Virus record (IMG/VR): IMGVR_UViG_3300028840_006907
Span: 288,001 to 352,000 of that record
Direction: 5' to 3' (one strand)
Origin: a virus
DNA: 64,000 bases
The notes beneath the pieces were generated by a model, which had not been told where the DNA came from, ran no database searches, and saw only the letters and a program-made list of their open reading frames with translations. A program made the position numbers and the translations under genes. Each line of letters opens with the position of its first letter. The first letter of the stretch is position 1. Positions 10,281 to 55,962 of the stretch are shown piece after piece.

Positions 10281-10342
10281 AAATTAGATATAAGAAGTCT
10301 CATTGAGACTATTCAATAAAATAATAAATAGGAATAAAAAAG

Positions 10343-11146: not shown

Positions 11147-11176
11147 ATTTACATATAGATATTGAAAGGAGATTGT

Positions 11177-12151: not shown

Positions 12152-12154
12152 CTT

Positions 12155-12856: not shown

Positions 12857-12865
12857 GAGGATAAA

Positions 12866-17141: not shown

Positions 17142-17155
17142 TAGGAGGACGAAGT

Positions 17156-19052: not shown

Positions 19053-19055
19053 AAT

Positions 19056-19718: not shown

Positions 19719-20374
19719 AAAATTATGGCTATGCTGATATGAGTGAAAAAGAAAAATTATCTAAAGAACAAGTATTAGAATTTTGGAAAAATCCTATAAA
19801 CGATAATACTAATAAAAATGAGAACAATGATCCTGAGCATTATTTGAGTGGGGAAAAACGTAGCCGATATCTCGTTGAATTAATTAAAAGGCATTTACAT
19901 AAAGAAGCAAAAATATTAGAGATTGGTTGTAATGTCGGGAGGAATTTGCATTATCTATATGAAACAGGTTATAACAATTTAAATGGGATAGAAATTAATG
20001 ATAATGCTGTTCAAGTGATGCATAAAAATTATCCCGAATTATATGGAAGTGTAGGAATTTATAATTGTCCGGTTGAATCTATTATTACATCTTTTTCCGA
20101 TGAAGCCTATGACTTGGTCTTTACAATGGCTGTTTTAGAGCACATTCATTATGAGAGTGATTTCATTTTCTCTGAGATAGCTCGGGTAGCCAAAAGATGT
20201 ATAATTACAATTGAAGATGAAAAAACTACCTGGAGTAACAGACATTTTCCTCGTAATTATAAGGAGGTGTTTGAGAAGATCGGGAATTGGGTACAGATTT
20301 ATGATATGAATTGTGGTGGGATTAATATACTTGATGATCGATTTTGGGTAAGGGTATTTAAAAAGAATGTCTAA
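19715..20374 (+). CDS. class I SAM-dependent methyltransferase
   Basis: ILEIGCNVGRNL (motif I) and DLVFTMAVLEHI. Confidence 0.75.
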   Translation: MKNYGYADMSEKEKLSKEQVLEFWKNPINDNTNKNENNDPEHYLSGEKRSRYLVELIKRHLHKEAKILEIGCNVGRNLHYLYETGYNNLNGIEINDNAVQVMHKNYPELYGSVGIYNCPVESIITSFSDEAYDLVFTMAVLEHIHYESDFIFSEIARVAKRCIITIEDEKTTWSNRHFPRNYKEVFEKIGNWVQIYDMNCGGINILDDRFWVRVFKKNV

Positions 20375-21158
20375 ACGAATAGTGTTAGTCAGAAATATGG
20401 GAAACAGTGGCGGTGCCTGGTTAATGAAGGTATTTAATATGCATGAAAACATATTAATGTTTCAGGAATTAAACCAGATACTGAGGTTAAGATATGATTA
20501 TTCGGATATAAATAAGAAGAATCTAAATTACCCTCATGTTGACTATGATGTAAAAATAGCTCAACGGAGTCGTGATCTTAAAGGATTTTTATTTAATAGT
20601 AGAACTCAGTGTCATATAGCAACTAGTTTTCTTTTATATCAATATGATATTAGAAAAGAAGATGCGATTGGGTTAATAAAATGTTTTGATCATGAATCTA
20701 TAAGAGAATGTAGAGTAAAATGTCCTTCTGTTAAAGTTGTACAAGTTTTAAGAAATCCTATTGGTATAATAGATTTTTATATGAGTCAGGAAAATTTAAG
20801 GCAAATAGCCCATCATGATCCATATGAAATATCTTTTAAAAAACATGTGGATTTCTTTCATAATAAATTTATAGATTTTTGGGAAAATAATGAAAAAAAA
20901 GGTGAGAAAATTATACGACTAGAAGATTTGAATATATCATTGAAAGATGGAAATCCTTTCTTAAAAGACACTATGGAAGATTTATTTGAAGTTAATTTCT
21001 CAAATGAATTTATTGAAAAAATCAAACAAAATTTAGGTTATGGGAATGAAGGTAACCAGAATAAAGAGATATGGCAAAACTGGGAAGGATGGAAAAAAGA
21101 ATATTTCAAGAAATATTTCGAAAATCTAATGATGAATCTTGGCTATGAATTGAGGTGA
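20367..21158 (+). CDS. sulfotransferase-fold-like protein, paralogue B
   Basis: LVRNMGNSGGAWL and VLRNPIGIIDFY; paralogue of 16446-17141. Confidence 0.4.
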   Translation: MSKRIVLVRNMGNSGGAWLMKVFNMHENILMFQELNQILRLRYDYSDINKKNLNYPHVDYDVKIAQRSRDLKGFLFNSRTQCHIATSFLLYQYDIRKEDAIGLIKCFDHESIRECRVKCPSVKVVQVLRNPIGIIDFYMSQENLRQIAHHDPYEISFKKHVDFFHNKFIDFWENNEKKGEKIIRLEDLNISLKDGNPFLKDTMEDLFEVNFSNEFIEKIKQNLGYGNEGNQNKEIWQNWEGWKKEYFKKYFENLMMNLGYELR

Positions 21159-21161
21159 TAA

Positions 21162-21737
21162 ATGAATTTATTTGAATCTGCGTACTATACTGAAGAGGAT
21201 CTGAGAAAAGGCGGTTTTAAAAGTGTCGGTAAAAATGTTCAGATTGATAAAAGTTGCACGATAATAGGCTTAGATAAAATCACTCTAGGAGATAATGTTC
21301 GAATCGATGGTTACTGTTGTATTATTGCCACAAAAGAGGAAGTGATTTTCGGTTCTTATATTCATATAGGTTCGTTTTGTCATCTCTGTGGAACTGCAGG
21401 TCTTATAATGAAAGATTTTTCAGGTTTGTCACAAGGAGTTCGAATTTACTCCTCTTCTGATGATTATTCAGGAAAGTTTTTAACTAATCCAACTGTTCCC
21501 GATAAATACACAGGTATAATAAGAGAACCAGTTATTATAGGTAAACATGTTATAATCGGGGCTAATACTGTTATTCTTCCAGGAGTTGTTATAGGTGATG
21601 GGTCAGCTATTGGTGCCATGTCCCTTGTAACAAAAGACGTAGATAAAAATAGTGTCTATGCAGGTTGTCCAGCGAAATTTATAAAAACACGTTCAAAAAG
21701 AATATTTGATTTAGAGAAGAGGTTATTAAATGAATAA
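21162..21737 (+). CDS. left-handed beta-helix (hexapeptide repeat) acetyltransferase
   Basis: Hexapeptide periodicity, e.g. GKHVIIGANTVILPGVVIGDGSAIGAMSLVTKDV. Confidence 0.85.
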   Translation: MNLFESAYYTEEDLRKGGFKSVGKNVQIDKSCTIIGLDKITLGDNVRIDGYCCIIATKEEVIFGSYIHIGSFCHLCGTAGLIMKDFSGLSQGVRIYSSSDDYSGKFLTNPTVPDKYTGIIREPVIIGKHVIIGANTVILPGVVIGDGSAIGAMSLVTKDVDKNSVYAGCPAKFIKTRSKRIFDLEKRLLNE

Positions 21738-22443
21738 ATCAATTTTCATATGTTCAGGAGGTCGATGTGGTACACATTGGGTTCGGCCTATTCTTGCTCA
21801 GCTTTTAGATTTACAAACTGGGTTTGATTGGAAAGGATATAATCCAAATAAAATTCCCTTTAAAACAGAACCTGGAGCTATTTGGAAAATAAAGATGGTA
21901 GAAAAGAGAGAGCCAGGAGGAAGGATTTATTCAGGGCATATGCCAATTACAGAACTTCTACCTATTATCAGTTTAGTAAATATAATAATTCTTATAAGAG
22001 ATCCTAGAGATATGTGTGTTTCGGCTGCATATTATACTCCAGAAAGAAGAGTATTAACTCAAGAAGAATTTGAATCTAAATTTAATAATTTATTAATACA
22101 AGGAAGCCCGAATCCTGATTTTCATGAATCTTATATAGAAAGTAAGAATAAAATACCTCATTTTTTATTAAAATATGAAGATATGATTCATGATGATTAT
22201 GGCTCAATAGTTAAATTTTTAAATAATTCAGGTTATAAATTTGAAGAAGAAAAATTAAAATATGTACTTGATAAAAACTCATTCAAGAATTTATCAGGTG
22301 GACGAGAAGCCGGTGAGGAGGATAATACCGCTTTTTATAGAAAAGGTATTGTGGGTGATTGGGTAAATTATCTCTCTAATGGTTTACTTGAACAATATAC
22401 CGATAGGCATAAAACTTTGTTGGAAGAATGGGGGTATATGTAA
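21730..22443 (+). CDS. sulfotransferase (Sulfotransfer_1-like)
   Basis: 5'-PSB-like GGRCGTHW, 3'-PB-like IRDPRDMCVSAAYY, and FYRKGIVGDWVNY (RKGxxGDW). Confidence 0.8.
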   Translation: MNKSIFICSGGRCGTHWVRPILAQLLDLQTGFDWKGYNPNKIPFKTEPGAIWKIKMVEKREPGGRIYSGHMPITELLPIISLVNIIILIRDPRDMCVSAAYYTPERRVLTQEEFESKFNNLLIQGSPNPDFHESYIESKNKIPHFLLKYEDMIHDDYGSIVKFLNNSGYKFEEEKLKYVLDKNSFKNLSGGREAGEEDNTAFYRKGIVGDWVNYLSNGLLEQYTDRHKTLLEEWGYM

Positions 22444-22444
22444 T

Positions 22445-23116
22445 ATGGAAGATTATTTTGAACAAATGGTAACAGTTTTTAAAAAGTACTTTAAAGAGTA
22501 TTATCGTAATGTATTCACAAATCAATCAGTGGAAACCTGTACAGGTATTTATAATCTTTGTAAAAAAGAAAATCCAGATCAAGTAGTGGAAATGGGAACC
22601 AATCATGGGGCTTCTACTCTTTCTATAGTAAAAGCACTGACTGATTTAGGGAAAGATTTGTCTATTATTACTTCAATTGATTTAGACCACGAGAAATGGA
22701 AGGCAACATTTAATATACAAAAAGAATTGATTAAAAAGTATGATTTAAATTTAGGAAAAGTAAAATTAATAACTCAAGATTTTAATTCAGTAGATCCTGT
22801 AGAAATAATTGACCCTGAAAAGAAAGTATTTATTTTTTATGATATGCATGATCATCGAGGCCCATGGTCACAGAGACTACTTGATTTATGGGTACCTTTA
22901 GTTAAGAATGGTGTCTTCTCTATTCATGATGTAACTCCTGTAAGTGAATCCTTTGAAATAGTTCAGGATAAAATTTCCCCTCGAACAAAGATACAGTATA
23001 AGAGTGGGCAGTATTTTGCAGGTTTCAATGAATGTTTTCGAATAATAAAATGGGCAAATACAAATAACATAAATATAGAGATATTTCCAGGAGGAGTATA
23101 TTTCAGAAATGGCTAA
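22445..23116 (+). CDS. putative class I methyltransferase-like protein
   Basis: ATG 22445 follows upstream stop (track start 22379 overlaps); VVEMGTNHGASTL glycine-rich loop; FIFYDMHDH. Confidence 0.45.
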   Translation: MEDYFEQMVTVFKKYFKEYYRNVFTNQSVETCTGIYNLCKKENPDQVVEMGTNHGASTLSIVKALTDLGKDLSIITSIDLDHEKWKATFNIQKELIKKYDLNLGKVKLITQDFNSVDPVEIIDPEKKVFIFYDMHDHRGPWSQRLLDLWVPLVKNGVFSIHDVTPVSESFEIVQDKISPRTKIQYKSGQYFAGFNECFRIIKWANTNNINIEIFPGGVYFRNG

Positions 23117-23795
23117 CATTTTTATTGGAAAAAATATGTCAAATATAAAAAATATTCCTGGTTTAAATAAAATAACAAAGATACATGATGTGGCTGATTA
23201 TGTGAGATTAGCTGATTTTGTCTATAAAACAATTTCCCATTCTATGGATAGTGGGATTGATTTAGATTATTCTGTTAATCAATTGTATTGGCAATTTGTG
23301 AATAAAAAGAGATTTGGATGGTGCTATATGCATGCTCTGTATTATCATCTTATAGTACAAGAATATGGTCGTGAATCTTTTGTTTATGATTATGGCTTAC
23401 CAGCGCCACAATTAACTCATAGTGTTGTTGTAGTAACTTTACGTGATGATAAGTATTTAATTGATCCTTATTTTAATCGTTATTATGTAACAGAAAAAGG
23501 GAATCCGTATACATTTCCTGACTTATTGGCTATGATAAAAACTGATCCAACAAAAATTTATAGTAAATATGGACCTGGTTTGAAAGAAGTTAAACAGGGA
23601 GATAAATATATAGAAACTTCTCCTGAACAATTTGAAAAAGGAGTATTGGAATCGTGGCGAGTAAATCAGAATTATGATAAAATAATGATGGAAAAATTTA
23701 ATAGCACAAATGCATTATTATTAATGCATTGTAAAGTACAAAAAGCTAAAGTATGTAAAAAAATAGATGGGACAAAGTATTTTGACTTTTTCTAA
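23109..23795 (+). CDS. hypothetical protein
   Basis: 228-aa ORF coupled to upstream gene (ATG overlaps stop); GWCYMHALYY could be a Cys-His site, but the fold was not recognised. Confidence 0.4.
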   Translation: MANIFIGKNMSNIKNIPGLNKITKIHDVADYVRLADFVYKTISHSMDSGIDLDYSVNQLYWQFVNKKRFGWCYMHALYYHLIVQEYGRESFVYDYGLPAPQLTHSVVVVTLRDDKYLIDPYFNRYYVTEKGNPYTFPDLLAMIKTDPTKIYSKYGPGLKEVKQGDKYIETSPEQFEKGVLESWRVNQNYDKIMMEKFNSTNALLLMHCKVQKAKVCKKIDGTKYFDFF

Positions 23796-24570
23796 TGTTA
23801 TATCCTTTATCAGTGCATTTAAAAAGTTTAAACCTCCTTATGGTATGATACAGCATTCTGCTATGTATTCATGGAATGCTAATAATATTGAAGTATTTGT
23901 TCCAGATAATGAGGTTGGAGTTAAAGATGCTTGTCAGAGTTATCCTAATATTAAATTAATCCCCGATGTTAAACGGGCTCGGGAAATGGGCTTTTCAAAT
24001 CAGTCTCCTATGGTAAAAGATCTGATTGCAAAAGCTCTACCTTTAATCAATACTCCGATGGTAGCTTTAATTAATTCAGACATTATAATTCAACCTGATT
24101 TTATAGAAAGAATAGAAAAAATACTGAAAGAATACGGTTTTGATATTTATATGGTGGGAACTCGATTTGATATTAAATTGGATATTCATATAAGTTCGGA
24201 AGAGACATATAAACAGGTATTGAGTTCAGAACGAAAAAGTTATGATGGCAGTACTTCTTCAGATATATTTATAGCTTCTAAATTTACCTGGAGGAAGATA
24301 GTTCATGAAATGCCTGATTTTATTCTAGGTCGGTATGGGTGGGATAATTGGTTACATATGATTGCAGAACTTAAAGGATATCGTAAATTTAATTGTACAG
24401 ATGCTTTGACTATTCTTCATTGTGAGCATGATCATAAGCATATAGTTCTTCAGGAAAAGGCTGAAAAACAAAGTGCTCCAAGTTCACAGCATAATTTAAA
24501 GTTATGGAATGAAGTAAAAAATGTTTATGGGACGACCAGGATAAATGCATGGCCAAAAATTGAAATATAA
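23767..24570 (+). CDS. hypothetical protein, possible glycosyltransferase
   Basis: ALINSDIIIQPDF acidic motif; start uncertain (23767 or ATG 23845). Confidence 0.35.
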   Translation: MGQSILTFSNVISFISAFKKFKPPYGMIQHSAMYSWNANNIEVFVPDNEVGVKDACQSYPNIKLIPDVKRAREMGFSNQSPMVKDLIAKALPLINTPMVALINSDIIIQPDFIERIEKILKEYGFDIYMVGTRFDIKLDIHISSEETYKQVLSSERKSYDGSTSSDIFIASKFTWRKIVHEMPDFILGRYGWDNWLHMIAELKGYRKFNCTDALTILHCEHDHKHIVLQEKAEKQSAPSSQHNLKLWNEVKNVYGTTRINAWPKIEI

Positions 24571-26195: not shown

Positions 26196-26963
26196 ATGAT
26201 AGATGCGAAAAGAGTCGTTTTTTCATACTTAAATTTAAAAGTTGCCAAAGATATGACACCAGAAGAGGCAAAGAAAATAGTGGATAAAATGCCTCCAGGA
26301 AGATTTGATAAAATTAAAAAATTGTTACAGCCTTTTGCTAGATTGTTTAAAAAATCTTTTAATGTAAGAGATGCTGGTGTCCTTGATACTTTAGGAAAAT
26401 TAAGTAGGGCTAAGGGAATTCCTCTTGTTGAATTGTTAGCAGTAGCTTCTATCATGTTTGGTGCTACTGTTCCGTCTTATGCTGACACTGCTAAAGAAAA
26501 AGCTCCAATAGTTCAAGTAAAAGAGAAAAGGCCCATTTCTGAGGTAAGAGCGGATCTAGAAAAAGTTTTTGAATTACCAAAAGGTTTAATGACTCTTGTA
26601 AAAGTTACTCCTCAATTAGCAATAAATTTAAAAGGTATAGATGGATTTGTAGAGACCGTGGGTAAAAATCTCGATAAGAGTATAACTCCTGAAGTTTCAG
26701 TATTGTTAAATCAAGTCCCAGATAATCAATGGCCTGAATTATTGTCTGGTTTAGTAATGCAGAAAATTCAAGAAGATGATAAAGTTGATAAGAAATTTAA
26801 AAAGTTTATTAAACACCATAAAACTAGCCCTCAAAATATGAAAAAAGAGATAGCAAAAGTTGTCTCACAAGAGAAATCTGGCATTCAAAAATTTGTTGAT
26901 AAAGGCATGGCTGAGAAGGGCCTAGCTAAAAAAGCCCATGAAAGAGGCTATTTAATTTCATAA
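26196..26963 (+). CDS. hypothetical Lys-rich protein
   Basis: RBS aaaagggg; 255 aa; preferred over antisense ORF 26132-26455. Confidence 0.5.
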   Translation: MIDAKRVVFSYLNLKVAKDMTPEEAKKIVDKMPPGRFDKIKKLLQPFARLFKKSFNVRDAGVLDTLGKLSRAKGIPLVELLAVASIMFGATVPSYADTAKEKAPIVQVKEKRPISEVRADLEKVFELPKGLMTLVKVTPQLAINLKGIDGFVETVGKNLDKSITPEVSVLLNQVPDNQWPELLSGLVMQKIQEDDKVDKKFKKFIKHHKTSPQNMKKEIAKVVSQEKSGIQKFVDKGMAEKGLAKKAHERGYLIS

Positions 26964-27496
26964 ATAGCTGTCTTTGTAGTTTTCATACCGAAAAGTTTAA
27001 ATGGATATTTCCCTAAAAACAATTCTATTGCATCTTGGTATACGTATTCTACAGGATTTTGAAGAATTATAATTCCTCCTTTTCTCACTTTTGGAACAGC
27101 CTCTTTGATACAAGAAGATCTTGATCTACCATTTATGAAAATGATATCAAAAGAATGATCAGCAAAGTTATTTATATAATTTACATAGTCTCTAAAATTC
27201 TTATATAAATAAGCCGGTACAGTACTTCCGAAGCTCTCATGGCTGTAAGGAAAGGGTTTAGGGTCATCGATAGGTTCTATTAATTCATAAGTAAAATTTC
27301 CTTTATTAGGTCCTATCTGTTTTTTTAATGTCTCATATGTTTCTCTGTCATGTTCCACTGATACTACAGCTTTAACAGTTCTTCTGAAATAAATAGTAGA
27401 ATCTCCTGATCCATATTCAAAAGTGATCATGTCATATTCAATGAAACTTTTTAACCAGTCTATAGCTTCAGGTTCAATTGGGGGGTAAACTTCCAT
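26948..27496 (-). CDS. putative class I methyltransferase-like protein
   Basis: FEYGSGDSTIYF glycine-rich loop, DIIFINGRSR, KGGIIILQN. Confidence 0.5.
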   Translation of the reverse strand: MEVYPPIEPEAIDWLKSFIEYDMITFEYGSGDSTIYFRRTVKAVVSVEHDRETYETLKKQIGPNKGNFTYELIEPIDDPKPFPYSHESFGSTVPAYLYKNFRDYVNYINNFADHSFDIIFINGRSRSSCIKEAVPKVRKGGIIILQNPVEYVYQDAIELFLGKYPFKLFGMKTTKTAIYEIK

Positions 27497-27856
27497 TTAT
27501 TCTTCCTCTATTCTTTTTAGTCCAATATTTCCAAGTTCTTCATCATTAAGTTTTTCTAATTTTATATGTTCATTCATGATAATTACATAAAATGGAATAT
27601 CAATAGATGATTGAAAGATGTCAATTAAATCTTGTGCTTGTGCCTCGGTAACAGGCATTTTAGGTCTTATAATGACAAGATCATCTTCTTTCAATTGTAA
27701 CTTTTCTAATTGGTAATTTATAACGATGTTTTCTACATATTGTTCAGCTACCTCTTTTGGATTGTGGCTCAAAGTATATCCGCATTTGTCACATTTGCCT
27801 GTATAAAAATCGATAGCTTCATCTCTACATTCAGGGCATTCTATTTTTTTATCCAT
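27497..27856 (-). CDS. zinc-ribbon protein
   Basis: CPECRDEAIDFYTGKCDKCG (CxxC...CxxC). Confidence 0.45.
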   Translation of the reverse strand: MDKKIECPECRDEAIDFYTGKCDKCGYTLSHNPKEVAEQYVENIVINYQLEKLQLKEDDLVIIRPKMPVTEAQAQDLIDIFQSSIDIPFYVIIMNEHIKLEKLNDEELGNIGLKRIEEE

Positions 27857-27858
27857 TT

Positions 27859-28485
27859 CTAAAATTTCCTTTCTACAGTATCTTTGAATTTAATCATTTT
27901 CCCAGTTCCGGTTCCTATGTGAGGAAAAGGAGTTTCAAATTCATATTTAATGACACATTTTGGCCAAGTCATGGTTGATTTTCCTCTTCTTTGTACTTTT
28001 GTTGTTGTCACACTTCTATTGTTATCTTCTATAATGAATGTGCAAGGTAAATCCCAACCATCTACATAACGAACAGCTTCATAAAAATGTCCTTCATCTT
28101 CAGCTCCATCTCCAATAAAACACCATACTTTATTTTTGCTTTTCTCCATTTTTAAAGATAAGGCTATTCCGGTAGCTATAGAAGCGGTTCCTGCTAGTAT
28201 AGAAGATGACAGGAAATTTAATTTTTTATCGAAGACATGCATTGAATCCCCGTTTAATAATATCTTTTCAAGATCTTTTTCATTTCCTCCTGCTAGTAAA
28301 TAATGGTAGTGGGATCGATGGGTAGAAAGAATATAATCTCCTTCATTAACTTTTTTGAATATTTCAATAATTTGATCTTCATTTCCTCCATTTAAATATA
28401 TCAAATAAGGAAGAAGCCCTTCTTCAAAGAGTTCAATTACTCTCTTTTCAAAAGAGATAAGTTCATTTTTTGTTTTATTAAACAT
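27859..28485 (-). CDS. TPP-dependent dehydrogenase E1 alpha-like subunit
   Basis: HRSHYHYLLAGG and FIGDGAEDEGHFYEAVRYVDGWDLPCTFIIEDNNRSV match the GDG-x(~25)-NN TPP-binding motif of E1 alpha. Confidence 0.75.
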   Translation of the reverse strand: MFNKTKNELISFEKRVIELFEEGLLPYLIYLNGGNEDQIIEIFKKVNEGDYILSTHRSHYHYLLAGGNEKDLEKILLNGDSMHVFDKKLNFLSSSILAGTASIATGIALSLKMEKSKNKVWCFIGDGAEDEGHFYEAVRYVDGWDLPCTFIIEDNNRSVTTTKVQRRGKSTMTWPKCVIKYEFETPFPHIGTGTGKMIKFKDTVERKF

Positions 28486-29545
28486 AGTTATCTCCGTAAC
28501 ATTCTATTATTTGATGTATTATCTTATTTTTTGCCTCATTAGCACATTGATGTGTACAAGATATGTCAGGTCTAAAATTTTGAAAGAAATTTTCTGTATC
28601 TCGTGAGAACCAGGTTTCACTGAATTTTTTATTTTTAATGGATCCTACCAATCCTTTTGGAGAATAAGCCATATTGTGACAAGTATAGATATTGAGATCA
28701 GCTCCAATTACAGGTACTATTAACGAGAAGAAACATTTTTTGTATTCTCTTTTATTTACCATAGGAGATATATTGTAACTGTCAAAAACATCAATACCTT
28801 CAATTTGACTAGCATATATAGTATCCAATTGTTCTCTTACTTGATATTTAATGGTATTGTGATAGTTATAAAAATCAGGAACCCACACCGGGGAGAATCG
28901 TATATTATCTACACCCATTTTATGTACAAGTTGAAAAGCTTCTATTAAGAATTCACAATTTTCTTTTGTTATGATATAGTTGACCCCGAGATTACAGGAA
29001 CTTTCTTTTTTTGAAAAGTTAAGAACATTTTCTACTATTTGATGAAACATTTTAGGGGATGCTTTTCTCGATTCGATAAAACTTTTTTCATCCCAGTAAT
29101 CGATAGAAACTCTAATCCATTTAGCATGAGTCATAATATCAGCTATGTTTCCACTGAGGAATTGACCATTTGTTAATATGGAAAGATCTATTTTACACTC
29201 AAGAGTTTTTTCAAGTATTTTCTCAATACCTTTATGAATTAATGGCTCTCCTCCACCAGAATAGGTAATAGCTTTAACACCAATGTCTTGAAGATCCTCT
29301 AATATTTCCATCATCTTTTCTGTGGGAATTTCATCCACTCTTTTCATATCGTCATGCATTTTAGAAAAGGAATAGTTGTACACACAGAAGTAACAATTAT
29401 GACAACATCTATTGGTAGGTTTTATTCTGACATAGATAGGAGAAGTTACAACATCATTTCGAAACGATTTCAATTTATCAGGAAACCACACTATTTTATA
29501 GTTGTTGTATTTATTATTCATTGTCATAGAAACCTCGTGTTTCAA
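28478..29545 (-). CDS. radical SAM enzyme
   Basis: TNRCCHNCYFCVY (CxxxCxxC), YSGGGEPL, SILTNG; start uncertain (29545/29527/29521). Confidence 0.8.
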   Translation of the reverse strand: MKHEVSMTMNNKYNNYKIVWFPDKLKSFRNDVVTSPIYVRIKPTNRCCHNCYFCVYNYSFSKMHDDMKRVDEIPTEKMMEILEDLQDIGVKAITYSGGGEPLIHKGIEKILEKTLECKIDLSILTNGQFLSGNIADIMTHAKWIRVSIDYWDEKSFIESRKASPKMFHQIVENVLNFSKKESSCNLGVNYIITKENCEFLIEAFQLVHKMGVDNIRFSPVWVPDFYNYHNTIKYQVREQLDTIYASQIEGIDVFDSYNISPMVNKREYKKCFFSLIVPVIGADLNIYTCHNMAYSPKGLVGSIKNKKFSETWFSRDTENFFQNFRPDISCTHQCANEAKNKIIHQIIECYGDNYV

Positions 29546-30038
29546 TTAGCATCATAGAGGTTTCCCATTTTGCTGCCTCTTTATAATGGTATAAAATTTC
29601 TTCTGAGTTATTTAATCTGATAACAGGAAAATCTACCATTTTCGATACAGCTTCAGTATGGTCCTGGACATGAGTTATGCAACTATATAAAGGTTTTTCT
29701 TTTTTCCCAATGACAACTCTTATAATCACTTTAGGATCGTAATCACCGTTTGACATAACTTTTATTTTGTCTAAATGATTTACTATTGAATCTAGTGCAT
29801 TTAAAACAAAATCAAATCGTTCAAAATAAACAATTGGTTTGTATCCTCTGATGCTCATTCCTATGGCCATTCCTGCCATTAAGTTCTCGGCTACAGGTGT
29901 TTCGATTAATTGAGATTCCGGAACATCAATTAAGGTATTAGCTGCTCTAGTGTATTTTGTATTATATCCTATAAATACTGTTTTTTCTTGTTTAGCCAAT
30001 TCATTCATCGAGTATTTAAGAGCATCTATATATCGCAT
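29514..30038 (-). CDS. E1 beta-like (transketolase pyrimidine-binding) subunit, lacks the C-terminal domain
   Basis: MRYIDALKYSMNELAKQEKTVFIGYN...LIETPVAENLMAGMAIGMSIRGYKPIV follows the E1 beta N-terminal pattern; only 174 aa. Confidence 0.7.
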   Translation of the reverse strand: MRYIDALKYSMNELAKQEKTVFIGYNTKYTRAANTLIDVPESQLIETPVAENLMAGMAIGMSIRGYKPIVYFERFDFVLNALDSIVNHLDKIKVMSNGDYDPKVIIRVVIGKKEKPLYSCITHVQDHTEAVSKMVDFPVIRLNNSEEILYHYKEAAKWETSMMLIETRGFYDNE

Positions 30039-30656
30039 CTATTTAACCTTTTCTTTTGGTGTAATAATCAGATAACCTTGGTCTCGGTAATCTTTTGTGA
30101 CATCGTGTGTCTCTTTAAACATTTCAACAATGTAATTAGTACCATTTAAACCGTATTTAGGTCTGAAGTATCTGTAACGTGCTATTAAATTACCTGTTTC
30201 AAATGGCCCATCTTCATGATGATTTAGATCATCAATAATCATGACGTCTTTACCTTTTCGATATTTTTTTATCATTTCGAGTTCTAAGTTTAAAGGAAAT
30301 TTCAATCTTTTTGGAAGATCTTCATCATAGTGATGTCCATCTATCTGAAAGTCAGCTCCGGGAAAATGAGCATCTAAAAAGAAAAGAACTACATCAGTTT
30401 CTTTAACTTCATTTTTAAATAGTGATTCGAGTCCTACTGGAGATTCACAATTCAAAAAATTAATTCGTGGGTCTACAATATTTTTTGAGGTTTCATTGAA
30501 AAGTTTTTCGATAATTTCAATAGAGTGTATTTTTTCAAAAGGAAATCCTAATGCATATGTTACTCCTTCTCCTTTTCCCGTACCTGTCTCTATCATAATA
30601 TTGCATCCGTAATCTCTGATATACTCATCAAGTTTATGCTTGTTTAGAGTTCCCAT
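30039..30656 (-). CDS. methyltransferase-like protein, FLDAHFPGADF family, copy 1
   Basis: ETGTGKGEG glycine-rich loop, FFLDAHFPGADF, IIDDL, QGYLIITPK; paralogue of 32001-32615. Confidence 0.45.
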   Translation of the reverse strand: MGTLNKHKLDEYIRDYGCNIMIETGTGKGEGVTYALGFPFEKIHSIEIIEKLFNETSKNIVDPRINFLNCESPVGLESLFKNEVKETDVVLFFLDAHFPGADFQIDGHHYDEDLPKRLKFPLNLELEMIKKYRKGKDVMIIDDLNHHEDGPFETGNLIARYRYFRPKYGLNGTNYIVEMFKETHDVTKDYRDQGYLIITPKEKVK

Positions 30657-31513
30657 TATATTTCCCTTTGGTTAAAGTTTGGTGTATAAAATTGTTGAAT
30701 CGCTTTATAATCATGTGGTAAAAAGTATTTCTTTATCCATGTATATGTAGGCATTCTATTGTAGATATTTTGATCATGAGTTTTTATGAATAATTTATGA
30801 GGAGGAAGTACTTTACAACATAAAATAGCACAGAAAGAATCGCACCCAACATAATAACCTGCGTATTTTGACAGGGCTATTATTGAAGTTAAAGGAATGT
30901 CTTTTGGGGCTATGAAATGATTTAAAGTAGGTGCAACAGGTGTGTCTGAAATAATGAGAACCTTTAAGCCAGTCTTTATTGACAGGTTATTTATAAATTC
31001 CCAATCATCATTATTGATAACCGCTATATCACTTCGTGGTCTTGAAGAGGTTGGATAGTGCATTAAGATATATTTAAAAGGTTCTATTTTTAATCCATTC
31101 CAATCAATATCATCAACACTAGCGCTCATTAAAAATGATGACCCTTGAAAAGTTCTATTGGTATCCATTATCATTGGTACCATGTCTACGGGACGTACAT
31201 CATCTTCAGGTTTTATATTAAGTAATTCTTTTCCTATTGTGTAATCAGGTTCGATGTCAGATCTAAAATGCCAGAAGGTATCTTTTATCGGGCTAGATTG
31301 AAAGGTCCTTCTCATATTTTTTCTACCTACTTCTTCATCTATGAAGTGATGCTTTTTTACTCTGTAATAGATATTATGATCAATTATAGGAGCTATGCAT
31401 TTCCCAAATCTGCATGGCCAGTATATTTCAGTTATAGATTCTCTTTCTTTTTGAGTCATTAAAGCATCGATACACATCATATCTCCGATGCCGACAGAGA
31501 AGTAAATTTTCAT
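30656..31513 (-). CDS. putative GT-B (GT9-like) glycosyltransferase, GIGD family, copy 1
   Basis: N-terminal IYFSVGIGDMMC and C-terminal YVGCDSFCAILC loosely resemble heptosyltransferase motifs; tentative. Confidence 0.35.
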   Translation of the reverse strand: MKIYFSVGIGDMMCIDALMTQKERESITEIYWPCRFGKCIAPIIDHNIYYRVKKHHFIDEEVGRKNMRRTFQSSPIKDTFWHFRSDIEPDYTIGKELLNIKPEDDVRPVDMVPMIMDTNRTFQGSSFLMSASVDDIDWNGLKIEPFKYILMHYPTSSRPRSDIAVINNDDWEFINNLSIKTGLKVLIISDTPVAPTLNHFIAPKDIPLTSIIALSKYAGYYVGCDSFCAILCCKVLPPHKLFIKTHDQNIYNRMPTYTWIKKYFLPHDYKAIQQFYTPNFNQREI

Positions 31514-32001
31514 TATTTTTCTCCAAAAATCATAAATGAGTGAAATAGGTCCCTTTCGGAAGCATAAATATTTTTATAGCCTTTGTTTTTCATGTAATCT
31601 TGGATAATTTTAGGTGTAAAGATATGCCTATGTTTTCTATTGTTCCATGGCCTCCAATATTCTTGTTCATAATGAGGAAGGTATAAGAACAATATCCCTC
31701 CTTCTTTTAAAATTTCATACCAATAATCCATGGCATCTATCCAGTTTTCGATATGTTCTAAGCAATGACTTGAGAAGACATAATCGACATCTTTCTTTGG
31801 TAAATTTAAAGCATGATACCCATCATCGAAGATTAGGTCAATAGGAATAGCTCCAGGTAAAGCCCAGGATCCTTTTCTGCATCCTATGTCATAACCTGTA
31901 CCTTTACATAATTGTTGGGCATAAGGTATAGCGAATTTGGCTGCATAACCTTCTGCTTGAAAATGGGGGTAAAATTTATTATTGAATTCTATTAATTCCA
32001 T
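31513..32001 (-). CDS. class I SAM-dependent methyltransferase
   Basis: GYDIGCRKG, VDYVFSSHCLEHI, LKEGGILFLYLP. Confidence 0.7.
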   Translation of the reverse strand: MELIEFNNKFYPHFQAEGYAAKFAIPYAQQLCKGTGYDIGCRKGSWALPGAIPIDLIFDDGYHALNLPKKDVDYVFSSHCLEHIENWIDAMDYWYEILKEGGILFLYLPHYEQEYWRPWNNRKHRHIFTPKIIQDYMKNKGYKNIYASERDLFHSFMIFGEK

Positions 32002-32615
32002 TATTCCTCTCGTTTTGGTGTTATTATCATATATCCTTGTGATTGGAAATCTCTAGTAAGAGAATGTGTCTTTCCGAATGCATCAAAAAGGAATTTTGAT
32101 CCGGAGGTAGGAGATATTTCATGGGCTAAAGTATTCGGTCCATCTGTAAAGGGGCCACTCTCATAAAGGCGTAAATCATCAGTTATAATTATATCATTTG
32201 TGACATCTTTTAAAGATGTGATTACTTCTACTTCTTTCTCACATGGGAGTCTCGTATTATAATCAGGTTCACTATTATAATAGGTATAATGGAAGTCAGC
32301 TCCTGGGAAATGAGCATCTAAAAAGAACAGTGTGTTGCCTTTCAAGTCCTTTATGATTTCGGGCAGAATTTTAAATGAGTTACCGTGATAAATTTTACAA
32401 TTTTTCCCTTTTTCTTTTGATAGAGCATCAAATTTTTTTACTGCTTTTTTATATATCTGATCATAAATCTCTATTGAATAAAAATTTTCAAAGGAATAAT
32501 TTAATGCATATTCCAAGCAATCACCTTCACCGGTACCAGTTTCAACATAATTTTTGAGGTTAAACGATTTAATCCATTTTTCCATTTCTGTAATAACTTG
32601 ATTTATGTGTCCCAT
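32001..32615 (-). CDS. methyltransferase-like protein, FLDAHFPGADF family, copy 2
   Basis: ETGTGEGDC, FFLDAHFPGADF, IITDDL, QGYMIITPK. Confidence 0.45.
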   Translation of the reverse strand: MGHINQVITEMEKWIKSFNLKNYVETGTGEGDCLEYALNYSFENFYSIEIYDQIYKKAVKKFDALSKEKGKNCKIYHGNSFKILPEIIKDLKGNTLFFLDAHFPGADFHYTYYNSEPDYNTRLPCEKEVEVITSLKDVTNDIIITDDLRLYESGPFTDGPNTLAHEISPTSGSKFLFDAFGKTHSLTRDFQSQGYMIITPKREE

Positions 32616-33286: not shown

Positions 33287-34090
33287 TTATCCAATAATAT
33301 CCTTTAAGTATTTGTCGTATAAGATATCTTCAATTATGTCATACTGTAAGGCAATTTTGAAATTATTCTCAATATATTCCATCAAGGAATAATACAATTC
33401 AGGGGATAAATCCGATACATCAAAGTCATCTTTTAATGTTATGATACCACGACTATCAAAAAACTCTCCTACATCGGGACTCCCATGATATACTGGAACT
33501 GTACCAGTAGTAAAACAGTCCAATATTTTTTCAGTCCAGTAAGTTTCATATTGTGAATTTTCAATTGTAACGGAGAACATGTAATCTACCAGAGCAATTT
33601 CTTTTTTCTCTATTTCATTAAACCCTCTGCCGTAAAGATCTAATTTATCTCTTAATTTATTTACCCATGCTAGTCTGAAATTATGGCCAGCACACATCCT
33701 TTTAGCAGAACTCATCATTGAGGCTAATTTAGTCTTCTTATAAATTTTAGGTTCCTTTATCCAGTACCCGTGAGAGGTGATGTAATGGAAATTATCTGCA
33801 AGGCTGTAGATTCTTTTGTCATGGGTAAATAGGAGAGGATAGGATTCTGAAATTTCTTTTGCATGGGCTATTATGTTGTCTATTACATTAGGAATAATTG
33901 AACTGGATTCTACTACCCAGGCAATTTTATTCGTTTTATTATTTATGTTCGGAACTATTTGTTCATCTACGAAAAAAGTCAGATCTTCTTGTTTACCTTT
34001 AGACCAATCAAAGTACGTAGGTTTTTTCCATAGTGTAGAAGAATAAGCATGTTGGAACCAACCACCTATAAGTCCTATTTTCTTTTTCAT
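33287..34090 (-). CDS. GT10 (alpha-1,3/4-fucosyltransferase-like) glycosyltransferase
   Basis: YMFSVTIENSQYETYWTEKILDCFTTGTVPVYHGSPDVGEFF aligns with the Helicobacter FucT motif FNLCFENTQGYGYVTEKIIDAYFSHTIPIYWGSP (from memory). Confidence 0.8.
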   Translation of the reverse strand: MKKKIGLIGGWFQHAYSSTLWKKPTYFDWSKGKQEDLTFFVDEQIVPNINNKTNKIAWVVESSSIIPNVIDNIIAHAKEISESYPLLFTHDKRIYSLADNFHYITSHGYWIKEPKIYKKTKLASMMSSAKRMCAGHNFRLAWVNKLRDKLDLYGRGFNEIEKKEIALVDYMFSVTIENSQYETYWTEKILDCFTTGTVPVYHGSPDVGEFFDSRGIITLKDDFDVSDLSPELYYSLMEYIENNFKIALQYDIIEDILYDKYLKDIIG

Positions 34091-34710
34091 TACAGACCGC
34101 CCTTGATATAGAATGCATCACCCCATGTCCCTCCATCCCATGTGGTCTCAGCTCTTTCAAAACCGTATTTTGAAAGGAAAGAATCCAACTCAGTTACCAT
34201 GCAACAATTTTCATAGACTTGATCACGATTTACTTCAGCAATGATATAGTCAATCTTTCTTAATGTCTCTGTGCCCCCTTTAAAAACTTCCAGCTCAAAT
34301 CCCTGGACATCAATATTAATGAGGTTGCTAAAATCAGAAAAATAAAAGTTGTCTAATTTTTCTACTCTTATCTCATCCGATTCTTCAAACTTAATATGTG
34401 GGTACTGTCTTAAATGTATCAGTGGTTTTAATAAGGAGCTAGATTCTCCTTGATTGGATGATTTATAGAAAGTCTTAAAACATTCTTCCGGACCTAAAGC
34501 AATGTTATAAATTCTTACTCTAGAGTCGTCTTTGATATTCTCGTATAGTACTTTAAAGGAATCTGGATCGGGTTCGAAAAAGTTCATCTCTTTTATTGAA
34601 TCATATTTTATATAAATTTTATATTCTTCCCCATAATGGGCTCCTATATGAATGATCCCAGTAACATTCATGTCGTATTTGTTTATTAATCTATCGAAAT
34701 CAAGTAGCAT
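34090..34710 (-). CDS. FkbM-family methyltransferase
   Basis: IHIGAHYGEE, NIDVQGFELEVFKGG, IIAEV. Confidence 0.7.
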   Translation of the reverse strand: MLLDFDRLINKYDMNVTGIIHIGAHYGEEYKIYIKYDSIKEMNFFEPDPDSFKVLYENIKDDSRVRIYNIALGPEECFKTFYKSSNQGESSSLLKPLIHLRQYPHIKFEESDEIRVEKLDNFYFSDFSNLINIDVQGFELEVFKGGTETLRKIDYIIAEVNRDQVYENCCMVTELDSFLSKYGFERAETTWDGGTWGDAFYIKGGL

Positions 34711-55859: not shown

Positions 55860-55962
55860 ATGAGTACCTCTTTTTAGTATATTACTTATTATAACAGGTA
55901 TTAGAGTTATTGTCAATATTTCATTTAATAAATATGGAATTCATTAATTTATAGGGAAAAAG

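What the first reader, a model, noticed from the sequence alone, without database searches (positions are those of the whole stretch)
27497..30038. Split TPP-dependent E1 alpha/beta pair bracketing a radical SAM enzyme inside a sugar island
Three coupled minus-strand genes encode the following:
- an E1 beta-like subunit that lacks the usual C-terminal domain (29514-30038)
- a radical SAM enzyme with the CxxxCxxC motif (28478-29545)
- an E1 alpha-like TPP-binding subunit with GDG...NN (27859-28485)

A zinc-ribbon protein follows. No E2 or E3 partners are visible, and the context is glycosyl- and methyl-transferases. Stand-alone E1 alpha/beta pairs in sugar clusters have been proposed to attach two-carbon branches to keto-sugars (the AviB1/AviB2 logic in avilamycin, recalled from memory). 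Adding a radical SAM enzyme suggests an unusual C-branched, C-methylated or deoxygenated sugar. I do not know of this trio in a phage.
Basis: partly seen in the sequence, partly recalled or inferred. Interest (0 to 1): 0.7.

Follow-up and report, generated by a model that had tools for sequence, protein, structure and literature searches.

The report
Radical-SAM plus thiamine sugar-tailoring cassette
Three overlapping genes in a huge phage (a stripped-down thiamine enzyme in two pieces plus a radical SAM enzyme) form a widespread, uncharacterised cassette of phages, bacteria and archaea that probably oxidises a sugar and adds a two-carbon unit to it.

Summary
Three translationally coupled minus-strand genes encode a minimal E1-beta-like Pyr domain (174 aa), a radical SAM enzyme (349 aa from ATG 29527, not the TTG at 29545) and a minimal E1-alpha-like TPP-binding domain (208 aa, also truncated).

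The trio is not a phage oddity. An alpha/beta pair flanks this rSAM family in 79 of 80 viral loci and 62 of 80 genome loci.

The new result is a displacement. Among alpha-selected viral loci, 54 have the rSAM and no Zn-alcohol dehydrogenase, 18 have the dehydrogenase and no rSAM, and none have both (p = 2.6e-15). The dehydrogenase version usually also carries a ketoreductase. Syntenic phage islands differ only in this core.

The rSAM has one auxiliary Cys4 cluster and folds most like DesII and BlsE. The best reading is that the rSAM makes a sugar carbonyl and the TPP pair adds a C2 unit from pyruvate, as proposed for AviB1/AviB2. A GT9-like transferase travels with the pair, and heptose-activation genes recur nearby, so the substrate is probably a heptose rather than a 4-keto-6-deoxyhexose.

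No biochemistry exists. I rate it a new variant of a known kind.

The parts
29514..30038 (-). Minimal E1-beta-like subunit (Pyr domain only, 174 aa). It keeps the cofactor-activating Glu51 and His123.
   Evidence: Transket_pyr E 1.8e-6 and PDH E1-beta NF006667 E 8.9e-17 over model positions 6-172 of 327. It matches PHROG 34187 positions 237-404. E51 and H123 are at least 95% conserved in 67 family members. The nearest solved structures are PDH E1-beta.
28478..29527 (-). Radical SAM enzyme (349 aa from ATG 29527) with a C41xxxC45xxC48 cluster and one auxiliary Cys4 site (C265, C283, C324, C328). Cys178 is an extra, near-invariant cysteine.
27859..28485 (-). Minimal E1-alpha-like subunit (PP domain only, 208 aa) with the Mg-TPP motif G125-D126-G127...N155 and the family signature H56-R57-x-H59-x-H61.
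   Evidence: E1_dh E 1.3e-19 over model positions 16-176 of 300; PDH E1-alpha TIGR03182 scores 93 bits against a cut-off of 394. It matches PHROG 34187 positions 7-202. Conservation is shown. The family has at least 1083 cluster representatives, and the top 120 are 199-232 aa.
30656..31513 (-). Compact GT-B glycosyltransferase of 285 aa, GT9-like (heptosyltransferase-like). It travels with alpha/beta in both the rSAM-type and the ADH-type cassettes.
30039..30656 (-). 205-aa protein of unknown function, probably methyltransferase-like. It is a paralogue of 32001-32615 and a homologue of S-SM2 SSM2_194.
   Evidence: No Pfam hit for this copy. The paralogue hits Methyltransf_4 at E 7.7e-6. jackhmmer hits fall in L168, L245, L169 and L020.
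27497..27856 (-). Zinc-ribbon protein (119 aa). It is lineage-specific and not part of the conserved module.
   Evidence: CxxC...CxxC is visible in the translation. It matches PHROG 18156 at E 3.1e-6. It is found only in the window's own contig and in L245.
26948..27496 (-). Last gene of the minus-strand operon: a 182-aa weak methyltransferase-like protein, followed by a terminator-like hairpin at 26949-26933.
   Evidence: Methyltransf_24 E 0.0058, below the cut-off. It is syntenic in L245.
33287..34710 (-). GT10 fucosyltransferase-family gene (33287-34090) and a Methyltransf_21 gene (34090-34710). They mark the island as syntenic with the ADH-type islands of other phages.
   Evidence: Pfam assignments for the source contig are. 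The same MT21-GT10 pair precedes ADH-E1alpha-E1beta-p285 in L247, L249 and L250 and precedes the trio in L245.

Best explanation
The beta-rSAM-alpha trio is a self-contained sugar-tailoring module that works in two steps.

**Step 1 (inferred).** The radical SAM enzyme abstracts a hydrogen from a sugar carbinol carbon. Using its single Cys4 auxiliary cluster as electron acceptor, it oxidises that hydroxyl to a carbonyl without NAD. This is what BtrN does, and what DesII does on TDP-quinovose.

**Step 2 (inferred from family chemistry).** The minimal E1-like alpha/beta TPP enzyme decarboxylates a 2-oxo acid, most likely pyruvate. It then adds the hydroxyethyl-TPP carbanion to that carbonyl. The product carries an acetyl group, or a 1-hydroxyethyl group after reduction. 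It is a branch if the carbonyl is a ketone, and a two-carbon chain extension if it is an aldehyde.

The co-travelling GT9-like transferase and the surrounding methyl- and glycosyltransferases then decorate the sugar and attach it.

The substrate is most likely a nucleotide-activated heptose drawn from the host pool, because this window and the small phages encode no activation genes for it. The target is probably a virion or cell-surface glycan.

**What is shown:** the gene architecture, the catalytic motifs, the conservation, and the displacement by a dehydrogenase. **What is inferred:** the chemistry, the substrate and the target.
For: 1. **Tight linkage.** An alpha/beta pair is next to this rSAM family in 79 of 80 viral loci and 62 of 80 genome loci. 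In viral loci it lies within 100 bp in about 95% of cases. In the window the start and stop codons overlap.
2. **Catalytic competence.** GDG...N, the HRxHxH cluster, beta Glu51 and beta His123 are at least 95% conserved.
3. **No lipoyl chemistry.** The beta C-terminal domain and the alpha C-terminal third are missing, and there is no E2 or E3.
4. **Displacement.** In alpha-selected viral loci, 54 have rSAM and no ADH, 18 have ADH and no rSAM, 2 have neither (contig edges) and 0 have both; Fisher p = 2.6e-15. The ADH is a true medium-chain Zn-ADH and sits directly upstream of alpha-beta.
5. **Several independent architectures show it.** These are fused minimal alpha-beta in cyanophages S-SM2 and P-TIM68 and in small phages, split minimal B-A (L215, L216), and full-length E1 alpha/beta in T4-like freshwater phages whose island is syntenic with the window (MT21-GT10-...-core-p285).
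6. **Gene order mirrors the proposed pathway.** A classical ketoreductase follows alpha-beta in 14 of 20 ADH-type loci. The order ADH-TPP-KR matches oxidise, add acetyl, reduce the side chain, as with Pau7 (PMC4753412).
8. **Heptose theme.** p285 is GT9-like. GT9 domains occur in phage and DPANN loci. A GmhA-like SIS protein, a GmhB-like HAD phosphatase and a PfkB kinase/cytidylyltransferase fusion recur: the fusion is in 38 bacterial loci, and heptose genes are in S-SM2, L247, L249 and L250.
Against: - No member of either family has been assayed, so every chemical step is inferred.
- The ketoreductase is essentially absent from rSAM-type loci (one strong hit among 202). The rSAM may therefore replace ADH plus KR together, which fits a redox-neutral reaction such as epimerisation as well as it fits dehydrogenation.
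- The near-invariant extra Cys178 could be a hydrogen donor, as in radical epimerases.
- Structural similarity to DesII, BlsE and BtrN rests on 13-19% identity and the general rSAM/twitch fold.
- The window has no heptose genes.
- Some loci instead carry RmlA/RmlB/C-methyltransferase or pseB/pseC contexts, so the substrate may differ between lineages.
- Locus counts include close relatives, and some contigs were fetched twice, so they overstate independence.
Confidence: 0.45

Rival explanations
1. The TPP pair works at the sugar-phosphate level like DXS or transketolase. The rSAM (or the ADH) makes an aldehyde or ketone on a sugar or polyol phosphate. The TPP enzyme extends it by two carbons to an unusual ketose phosphate. 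Isomerase, kinase, phosphatase and nucleotidyltransferase steps of the GmhA/HldE/GmhB type (host or phage) then activate it for GT9-like transfer.
For: - SIS isomerase, HAD phosphatase and PfkB/cytidylyltransferase genes recur beside the module in bacteria, S-SM2 and T4-like phages.
- Alpha also hits DXP_synthase_N (E 8.1e-8).
- Distant bacterial versions use full split transketolase-like pairs.
- A PfkB kinase directly follows p285 in L247, L249 and L250.
Against: - The best sequence and structure matches are E1, not transketolase or DXS.
- The rSAM folds most like enzymes that act on nucleoside-linked sugars.
- A 1-deoxy-ketose made from pyruvate could not be isomerised by a GmhA-type enzyme (established chemistry).
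- The small phages and the window carry no activation genes at all.
Confidence: 0.2
2. The rSAM is a radical sugar epimerase (like AbmJ, or from memory HygY, NeoN and AviX12). The Zn-ADH plus ketoreductase pair is the two-step oxidise-and-re-reduce equivalent. The TPP enzyme then acts on a carbonyl that arises elsewhere, for example from a host 4,6-dehydratase.
For: - The ketoreductase tracks the ADH version (14 of 20 loci) and is absent from the rSAM version, so the swap is [ADH+KR] for [rSAM].
- The near-invariant Cys178, outside both cluster sites, lies on a barrel strand.
- rSAM heptose epimerisation has a precedent in AbmJ (PMC9978623).
Against: - In 13 loci the gene order ADH-alpha/beta-KR places the TPP step between the two redox steps.
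- Six ADH-type loci, including S-SM2, lack the ketoreductase.
- The tight coupling of the rSAM to alpha and beta, with overlapping genes, is not explained if their reactions are unrelated.
Confidence: 0.15
3. One reading: alpha/beta add a two-carbon branch to an NDP-4-keto-6-deoxyhexose, and the rSAM separately C-methylates or deoxygenates the sugar.
For: - In a Methylococcaceae MAG the trio sits beside RmlA, RmlB, a dTDP-sugar isomerase and a sugar C-methyltransferase.
- Vent contigs carry SDR and C-methyltransferase fusions next to B-R-A.
- The closest fold, DesII, is a deoxysugar enzyme.
Against: - There is no cobalamin-binding domain, so it is not a class B methylase.
- A methylase or deoxygenase would not be expected to be replaced one-for-one by a Zn-alcohol dehydrogenase.
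- 6-deoxyhexose genes are a minority context, whereas heptose and GT9 contexts dominate.
Confidence: 0.1
4. The rSAM is a protein maturase, like anSME or the tungsten-enzyme maturase that is its best NCBIfam hit. It would install a modification on the split alpha or beta subunit rather than act on a sugar.
For: - The best NCBIfam hit is TIGR04317 (89 bits), and many peptide-modifying SPASM models score at E 1e-10 to 1e-16.
- In this sample the rSAM occurs only with split alpha/beta, never with the fused form.
Against: - All those scores are far below the family cut-offs (89 against 380).
- Split alpha/beta works without the rSAM in L215, L216, L247, L249 and L250.
- A maturase would not be replaced by an alcohol dehydrogenase.
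Confidence: 0.05
5. It is an ordinary pyruvate or acetoin dehydrogenase E1, carried as an auxiliary metabolic gene with the rSAM beside it by chance.
For: The generic database names and best named hits are PDH or acetoin DH E1 alpha/beta.
Against: - Scores are far below the equivalog cut-offs (93 against 394, and 61 against 321).
- Both subunits lack the regions needed for E2 docking and reductive acylation.
- There is no E2 or E3 in the window or among the recurrent neighbours.
- The context is invariably sugar genes.
Confidence: 0.02

Closest known systems
AviB1/AviB2 (avilamycin) and Pau11/Pau12 (paulomycin): E1 alpha/beta-like pairs proposed to install a C-4 acetyl branch on a keto-sugar from pyruvate
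   Same: Both are a stand-alone E1-type alpha/beta TPP pair inside a sugar cluster with no E2 or E3. In the ADH-type sister cassettes a ketoreductase follows, as Pau7 follows Pau11/12 (PMC4753412).
   Different: Here both subunits are cut down to bare PP and Pyr domains (208 and 174 aa). The pair is obligatorily coupled to a radical SAM enzyme or a Zn-ADH rather than fed by a 4,6-dehydratase. The partners point to heptose. The hosts are phages, Gram-negative bacteria and DPANN archaea, not actinomycete antibiotic clusters. I could not run a direct sequence comparison with AviB1/B2.
BtrN (butirosin), a twitch-domain radical SAM dehydrogenase
   Same: Both have a radical SAM core plus a single Cys4-ligated auxiliary [4Fe-4S] site in a short C-terminal domain. 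BtrN performs an alcohol-to-ketone oxidation on a carbohydrate-like substrate. From memory, other aminoglycoside pathways use an NAD-dependent Zn-ADH for the same step, which is the same kind of swap seen here (PMC10337720).
DesII and BlsE, radical SAM enzymes acting on nucleoside-linked sugars
   Different: Identity is 13-19%. From memory, DesII has no auxiliary cluster. The BlsE NCBIfam model scores 40.6 bits against a cut-off of 400.
Heterotetrameric 2-oxo acid dehydrogenase E1 (PDH, BCKDH, acetoin DH)
   Same: These give the best sequence and solved-structure matches. The TPP/Mg motif and the activating Glu are conserved.
   Different: The beta C-terminal domain and the alpha C-terminal region are missing, there is no E2 or E3, and scores are far below the equivalog cut-offs.
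YerE (yersiniose) and DXS: TPP enzymes that add a pyruvate-derived C2 unit to a sugar carbonyl
   Same: They carry out the same proposed carboligation chemistry. YerE is cited in PMC4753412, and alpha gives a weak DXP_synthase_N hit.
   Different: From memory, YerE belongs to the acetolactate-synthase-type flavoprotein family. DXS is a single chain of about 620 aa acting on glyceraldehyde 3-phosphate.

Membership tests
2-oxo acid dehydrogenase E1, heterotetrameric alpha/beta type | TPP/Mg-binding GDG-(x)n-N motif in alpha and the cofactor-activating Glu in beta | tested here: met
   G125-D126-G127...N155 in alpha and E51 in beta are at least 95% conserved in the family.
2-oxo acid dehydrogenase E1, heterotetrameric alpha/beta type | Full-length subunits: the beta C-terminal (Transketolase_C) domain that docks E2, and the alpha C-terminal region carrying the catalytic His and regulatory loops | tested here: not met
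   Beta aligns only to model positions 6-172 of 327, and alpha only to 16-176 of 300 or 16-181 of 315. PDB alignments stop at residue 216 of 365 in E1-alpha.
2-oxo acid dehydrogenase E1, heterotetrameric alpha/beta type | Score above the curated equivalog cut-offs, and presence of E2/E3 partners | tested here: not met
   Alpha scores 93 bits against 394, and beta 61 bits against 321. No E2 or E3 occurs in the window or among recurrent neighbours.
Radical SAM superfamily | CxxxCxxC cluster motif and a Pfam PF04055 score above the gathering cut-off | tested here: met
   C41, C45 and C48 are invariant. PF04055 scores 62.8 bits against 29.5.
SPASM/twitch subgroup of radical SAM enzymes | C-terminal cysteines for auxiliary [4Fe-4S] clusters: four for one twitch cluster, seven or more for the two SPASM clusters | tested here: inconclusive
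   Four invariant C-terminal Cys (C265, C283, C324, C328) fit a single Cys4 twitch-type site, and a seven-Cys SPASM pattern is absent. Many homologues carry a precomputed PF13186 SPASM hit, but the window protein does not at E 0.1 or better. Cluster content is not testable here.
Radical SAM alcohol dehydrogenases (BtrN, anSME type) | Two-electron oxidation of a carbinol to a carbonyl with stoichiometric SAM cleavage | not testable with these tools
   MoaA models score 48.9-56.3 bits against cut-offs of 231-325, and no RNR activase model is among the top hits.
AviB1/AviB2-type sugar C2-branching E1 pairs | An E1 alpha/beta-like pair without E2 or E3 inside a glycan or deoxysugar gene cluster | tested here: met
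AviB1/AviB2-type sugar C2-branching E1 pairs | Sequence orthology to AviB1/AviB2, and transfer of a pyruvate-derived acetyl group to a 4-keto sugar | not tested
GT9 heptosyltransferases (for the 285-aa partner at 30656-31513) | GT-B fold closest to WaaC/WaaF/TibC, and a Pfam PF01075 match | tested here: inconclusive

The most novel reading that the evidence does not exclude
The rSAM and the minimal TPP enzyme form one complex that does radical-polar C-C coupling. The 5'-deoxyadenosyl radical generates a sugar carbon radical that is captured directly by the TPP-bound C2 intermediate, or the reverse. This would build a branched or chain-extended 'nonose' from host ADP-heptose in one step. The Zn-ADH plus ketoreductase version needs three steps to do the same. 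GT9-like enzymes would then use the new sugar to glycosylate virions.
Probability: 0.1. Interest if true: 0.9.

Novelty: new variant of a known kind. Interest (0 to 1): 0.6.

Why it matters
- **Chemistry.** If the model holds, this is a widespread and so far unstudied way of making C2-branched or C2-extended sugars. It pairs an oxygen-sensitive radical SAM oxidase with the smallest known E1-type thiamine enzyme, about 380 residues in total.
- **A natural control.** The aerobic equivalent (Zn-ADH, fused alpha-beta, ketoreductase) exists in cultured cyanophages S-SM2 and P-TIM68. That gives a built-in control and a tractable system to start from.
- **Phage biology.** Hundreds of phages, from 30-kb siphoviruses to phages above 400 kb, carry the cassette. 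It often lies next to the capsid gene and glycosyltransferases. This suggests that virion or host-surface glycans contain an unknown sugar.
- **Annotation.** More than a thousand proteins now labelled 'pyruvate dehydrogenase E1 alpha', 'transketolase central region' or 'MoaA/NifB/PqqE family' would need correcting.

Tried and rejected
- **Single-sequence phmmer for alpha/beta** found them in only 96 and 91 of 167 loci and missed divergent pairs, so I replaced it with iterated profiles. The 'AB' labels arise because one fused sequence entered the alpha profile; they are not real fusions.
- **Full-text literature searches (ten)** combined radical SAM with thiamine, transketolase, E1, heptose, branched sugar or O-antigen. 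None found a paper on this pairing. The BtrN-versus-NeoA statement could not be confirmed in the library and is marked as recalled from memory.
- **Accessory unknowns.** X254 and Y260 from the small phages have no homologue in the window. hhalign found no relation among p285, X254, Y260, X265, X234, p220 and p205.
- **Zinc ribbon as a conserved electron donor:** rejected, because it occurs only in the window's near relatives.
- **Insertion of the rSAM into a fused alpha-beta gene:** rejected, because the fused order is alpha-beta and A-R-B never occurs.
- **Heptose genes in the window:** none found.
- **Promoter scan:** no more sites than in shuffled sequence.
- **Plasmid search:** only one distant hit.
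- **One Pfam call** failed on a wrong coordinate and was repeated.


Full report
**1. What is in the window**

The minus strand between about 39.8 kb and 26.9 kb is one tightly packed run of genes. Within it lie three genes.
- 29514-30038 encodes a 174-aa protein that matches only the pyrimidine-binding (Pyr) domain of E1-beta or transketolase. It hits Transket_pyr at E 1.8e-6 and PDH E1-beta NF006667 at E 8.9e-17, over model positions 6-172 of 327.
- 28478-29527 encodes a radical SAM (rSAM) enzyme (PF04055, E 5.8e-17).
- 27859-28485 encodes a 208-aa protein that matches only the core of the TPP-binding (PP) domain of E1-alpha. It hits E1_dh at E 1.3e-19, over model positions 16-176 of 300.

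The rSAM starts at ATG 29527 (349 aa), not at the upstream TTG. This follows from the called database protein, the family alignment, and a GAGG 5 nt upstream. The beta stop overlaps the rSAM start by 14 nt. The rSAM stop overlaps the alpha start by 8 nt, after a GGAG.

A zinc-ribbon ORF follows at 27497-27856, then a weak methyltransferase-like gene and a terminator-like hairpin. I found no E2 or E3 gene in any ORF I annotated.

The window comes from a very large phage. The same proteins lie on contigs of 389-470 kb. The only DNA-level match in GenBank phages is the 735-kb huge phage LR756501, which has the same beta-rSAM-alpha order.

**2. The proteins**

Both TPP subunits look catalytically intact.
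- In alpha, G125-D126-G127...N155 (the Mg-TPP motif) and an H56-R57-x-H59-x-H61 cluster are conserved in at least 95% of 60 family members.
- In beta, the cofactor-activating Glu51 and His123 are conserved to the same degree in 67 members.

The nearest solved structures are human and Geobacillus PDH E1 alpha/beta, but only at E 1e-9 to 1e-11 and only over the core domains. Scores against curated PDH models are far below their cut-offs: 93 against 394 bits, and 61 against 321 bits. Together the two subunits form a minimal PP+Pyr enzyme of about 380 residues. It cannot dock an E2, because the beta C-terminal domain that does this in E1 enzymes is missing (the docking role is established knowledge of E1 structures).

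The alpha family is large and tightly conserved. It has at least 1083 cluster representatives, and the top 120 are 199-232 aa long and at least 60% identical.

The rSAM has the canonical C41xxxC45xxC48 motif. It also has four invariant C-terminal cysteines (C265, C283, C324, C328) and a near-invariant Cys178. This pattern fits a single Cys4 auxiliary cluster of the twitch type, not a two-cluster SPASM domain.

**3. The trio is a conserved cassette**

A word-indexed search found 1687 relatives of the rSAM, and the top 120 are all at least 46% identical. I scanned reference genomes and IMG/VR with an rSAM alignment. This returned 86 genome stretches and 165 viral stretches, of which 80 loci from each were kept. 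I then searched those loci with iterated alpha and beta profiles.

| Set | Loci with an alpha/beta pair next to the rSAM | Orders seen |
|---|---|---|
| Viral (80) | 79 | A-B-R 44; B-R-A 28 (as in the window); B-R cut by a contig end 6; R-A 1 |
| Genome (80) | 62 | A-B-R 24; R-A-B 18; divergent (opposite-strand) arrangements 18; B-R-A 1; R-A 1 |

In viral loci the rSAM lies within 100 bp of alpha in 94% of cases and within 100 bp of beta in 95%. Hosts include Methylococcaceae, Magnetospirillaceae, Verrucomicrobia, Patescibacteria and DPANN archaea. More distant versions occur in Azospirillum, Magnetospirillum, Magnetococcales, Lachnospiraceae and Chlorobium.

PHROG 34187 shows that in some phages alpha and beta are one protein, in the order alpha then beta. 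The order A-R-B was never seen. The window's 'bracketing' is therefore a gene-order variant, not an insertion into a fused gene.

Two lineages of small phages (contigs of 25-38 kb) carry the trio with only one or two glycosyltransferase-like genes.
- In one lineage the cassette lies between the major head protein and the tape measure.
- In the other it lies between a RecE/RecT/RusA module and virion genes.

These phages encode no sugar-activation genes, so the substrate must be a common host metabolite.

**4. The key result: the rSAM and a Zn-alcohol dehydrogenase replace each other**

I scanned IMG/VR with an alpha alignment, a selection that is blind to the rSAM. It found 354 alpha-encoding stretches. 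The 74 new viral loci divide as follows.

| Class | Loci |
|---|---|
| rSAM present, no Zn-ADH | 54 |
| Zn-ADH present, no rSAM | 18 |
| Neither (short contigs ending just after beta) | 2 |
| Both | 0 |

Fisher's exact test gives p = 2.6e-15.

The ADH is a genuine medium-chain Zn-dehydrogenase (ADH_N plus ADH_zinc_N) and usually lies immediately upstream of alpha-beta. Across every alpha/beta-bearing locus fetched, the counts are 202 with the rSAM, 19 with the ADH and none with both. These counts include close relatives and some contigs fetched twice.

The ADH version occurs in at least four different architectures.
- Fused minimal alpha-beta in the cultured cyanophages S-SM2 and P-TIM68.
- Fused minimal alpha-beta next to the capsid gene of small phages.
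- Split minimal beta-alpha in L215 and L216.
- Full-length E1-alpha (312-325 aa) and E1-beta (345-347 aa, with Transketolase_C) in T4-like freshwater phages.

The last group is syntenic with the window. Its order is MT21 - GT10 - x - x - a ~208-aa gene - [ADH - E1alpha - E1beta] - p285 - PfkB kinase - SDR. The window's order is MT21 - GT10 - p220 - p204 - MT - p285 - p205 - [beta - rSAM - alpha]. The full-length alpha shares the HRSHxHYL signature with the window's alpha and is 32% identical (E 6e-27).

A classical short-chain ketoreductase follows alpha-beta in 14 of 20 rSAM-less loci. It is essentially absent from rSAM-type loci, with one strong hit (L002) among 202.

**5. Most likely mechanism**

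The simplest reading of ADH - TPP enzyme - ketoreductase has three steps.
1. Oxidise a sugar hydroxyl to a carbonyl.
2. Add the pyruvate-derived hydroxyethyl-TPP carbanion to it, giving an acetyl-bearing carbon.
3. Reduce the side-chain ketone to 1-hydroxyethyl.

This is the logic proposed for AviB1/AviB2 and Pau11/Pau12 followed by Pau7 (PMC4753412). It is also the chemistry of YerE and DXS.

In the window's version the rSAM would supply the carbonyl. BtrN is a proven rSAM alcohol dehydrogenase with exactly this kind of Cys4 auxiliary cluster (PMC10337720). From memory, other aminoglycoside pathways use an NAD-dependent Zn-ADH for the same step, and DesII dehydrogenates TDP-quinovose.

All chemistry here is inference. 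The architecture, the motifs, the linkage and the displacement are shown.

The main weakness is that the ketoreductase disappears together with the ADH. The rSAM might therefore replace both enzymes, which would suit a redox-neutral radical epimerase. AbmJ is a precedent on a heptose (PMC9978623), and Cys178 would be the hydrogen donor. I rank that reading as a rival.

**6. Which sugar, and which target**

Other evidence points the same way.
- GT9 Pfam domains occur in the phage MT/GT fusions and in DPANN loci.
- In bacteria the recurrent neighbours include a cytidylyltransferase-PfkB kinase fusion (38 loci), a GmhA-like SIS protein and a GmhB-like HAD phosphatase. SDR enzymes, DegT aminotransferases, sugar C-methyltransferases and further paralogous rSAMs also recur.
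- S-SM2 carries phosphoheptose isomerase and heptose kinase/adenylyltransferase genes in the same island.

A heptose-type nucleotide sugar is therefore the best guess. In this window, which has none of those genes, it would be drawn from the host.

Minority contexts differ between lineages, so the substrate may differ too.
- RmlA, RmlB, an isomerase and a C-methyltransferase in a Methylococcaceae MAG.
- pseB, pseC and a Maf-like gene on a Solidesulfovibrio plasmid.
- The window's own opposite arm, which encodes a complete nonulosonic-acid pathway.

A sugar-phosphate-level, DXS-like chain extension is a serious rival.

The target is not established. Placement next to capsid genes in two small-phage lineages suggests virion glycosylation, which is known in mycobacteriophages (Freeman 2023, cited in PMC12619734). 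Phage DNA glycans (Pyle 2024, same source) and host-surface modification are not excluded.

**7. Verdict**

- **Observation:** confirmed.
- **Interpretation:** partly supported. The AviB-type idea stands, and neither refutation condition is met. But the trio is common, it is not an insertion, the rSAM is better explained as the carbonyl-forming partner than as a methylase or deoxygenase, and heptose is a better substrate guess than a 4-keto-6-deoxyhexose.
- **Prior work:** I found no published characterisation in ten full-text searches.
- **Novelty:** a new variant of a known kind, namely an obligate rSAM/minimal-E1 pairing with a natural ADH-based counterpart. It is biochemically untested and directly testable.

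Noticed in passing
window 8931-24570 (+ strand): This arm encodes a near-complete nonulosonic-acid (pseudaminic/legionaminic-type) pathway with tailoring genes. It includes a UDP-Glc/GDP-Man dehydrogenase family gene, an SDR epimerase, a sugar-1-P nucleotidyltransferase, a formyltransferase, a PIG-L deacetylase, a 4,6-dehydratase, a DegT aminotransferase, a NeuB synthase and a CMP-sugar synthetase. It also has methyltransferases, a hexapeptide acyltransferase and a Sulfotransfer_1 sulfotransferase. A sulfated or formylated nonulosonate made by a phage would be unusual.
   Followed up: partly
window 4336-7320 (+): A 994-aa protein combines GT2, GT1 and methyltransferase domains in one chain. 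With it, the sugar island spans roughly 4.3-39.8 kb of the window.
   Followed up: no
window 53409-55916 (-): An 835-aa ORF combines a Mom-like DNA-modification domain (PF25680; PHROG 1384) with homing/HNH-endonuclease-like and D5-like regulator segments. It may be a DNA-modification enzyme of the phage.
   Followed up: no
window 30039-30656 and 32001-32615 (-): These are two paralogous ~205-aa proteins sharing ETGTGxG...FLDAHFPGADF motifs. One weakly hits Methyltransf_4. Homologues include S-SM2 SSM2_194. Their function is unknown and they recur in the same islands.
   Followed up: partly
L087, L076, L051, L028, L054 (bacterial loci): Bacterial loci carry two to six paralogous rSAMs of this same family side by side. 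They sit with full-length split transketolase-like pairs, a GmhA/HAD/PfkB-cytidylyltransferase module, DegT, C-methyltransferases and a UDP-galactopyranose-mutase-like flavoenzyme. This looks like a large uncharacterised heptose-modification system.
   Followed up: partly
L244 (Solidesulfovibrio carbinolicus plasmid pDCAR1, 89103-118131): A distant rSAM family member (34.5% identity) lies with two split transketolase pairs, methyltransferases and FabG. These sit next to pseB, pseC and an MptE-like (Maf-type) gene, which looks like a flagellin-glycosylation island.
   Followed up: no
L215 and L216 (IMG/VR contigs of 194 kb and 88 kb): L215 has two copies of a split minimal alpha/beta pair about 3 kb apart, in the order ADH-beta-alpha, with no rSAM. 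L216 shows the same start but is cut by its contig end. This is the only rSAM-less split minimal form seen.
   Followed up: no
L002 (GCA_024449895.1 contig, 230 kb): This is the only rSAM-type locus that also has a strong ketoreductase hit. Its order is x266-rSAM-x263-alpha-beta-SDR, with a second 470-aa rSAM nearby and an intein/LAGLIDADG gene at the locus edge.
   Followed up: no
PMC12801897 (cyanophage S-SCSM2R paper): A DegT-like aminotransferase, an amidinotransferase and a 'radical SAM maturase' in a cyanophage are described there as antibiotic-synthesis genes. They may instead be sugar-tailoring genes like those studied here. I did not check this against the sequence.
   Followed up: no
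window, whole: Cumulative GC skew flattens and reverses between about 26 kb and 40 kb. This matches the block of minus-strand genes and simply reflects the direction of transcription.
   Followed up: no
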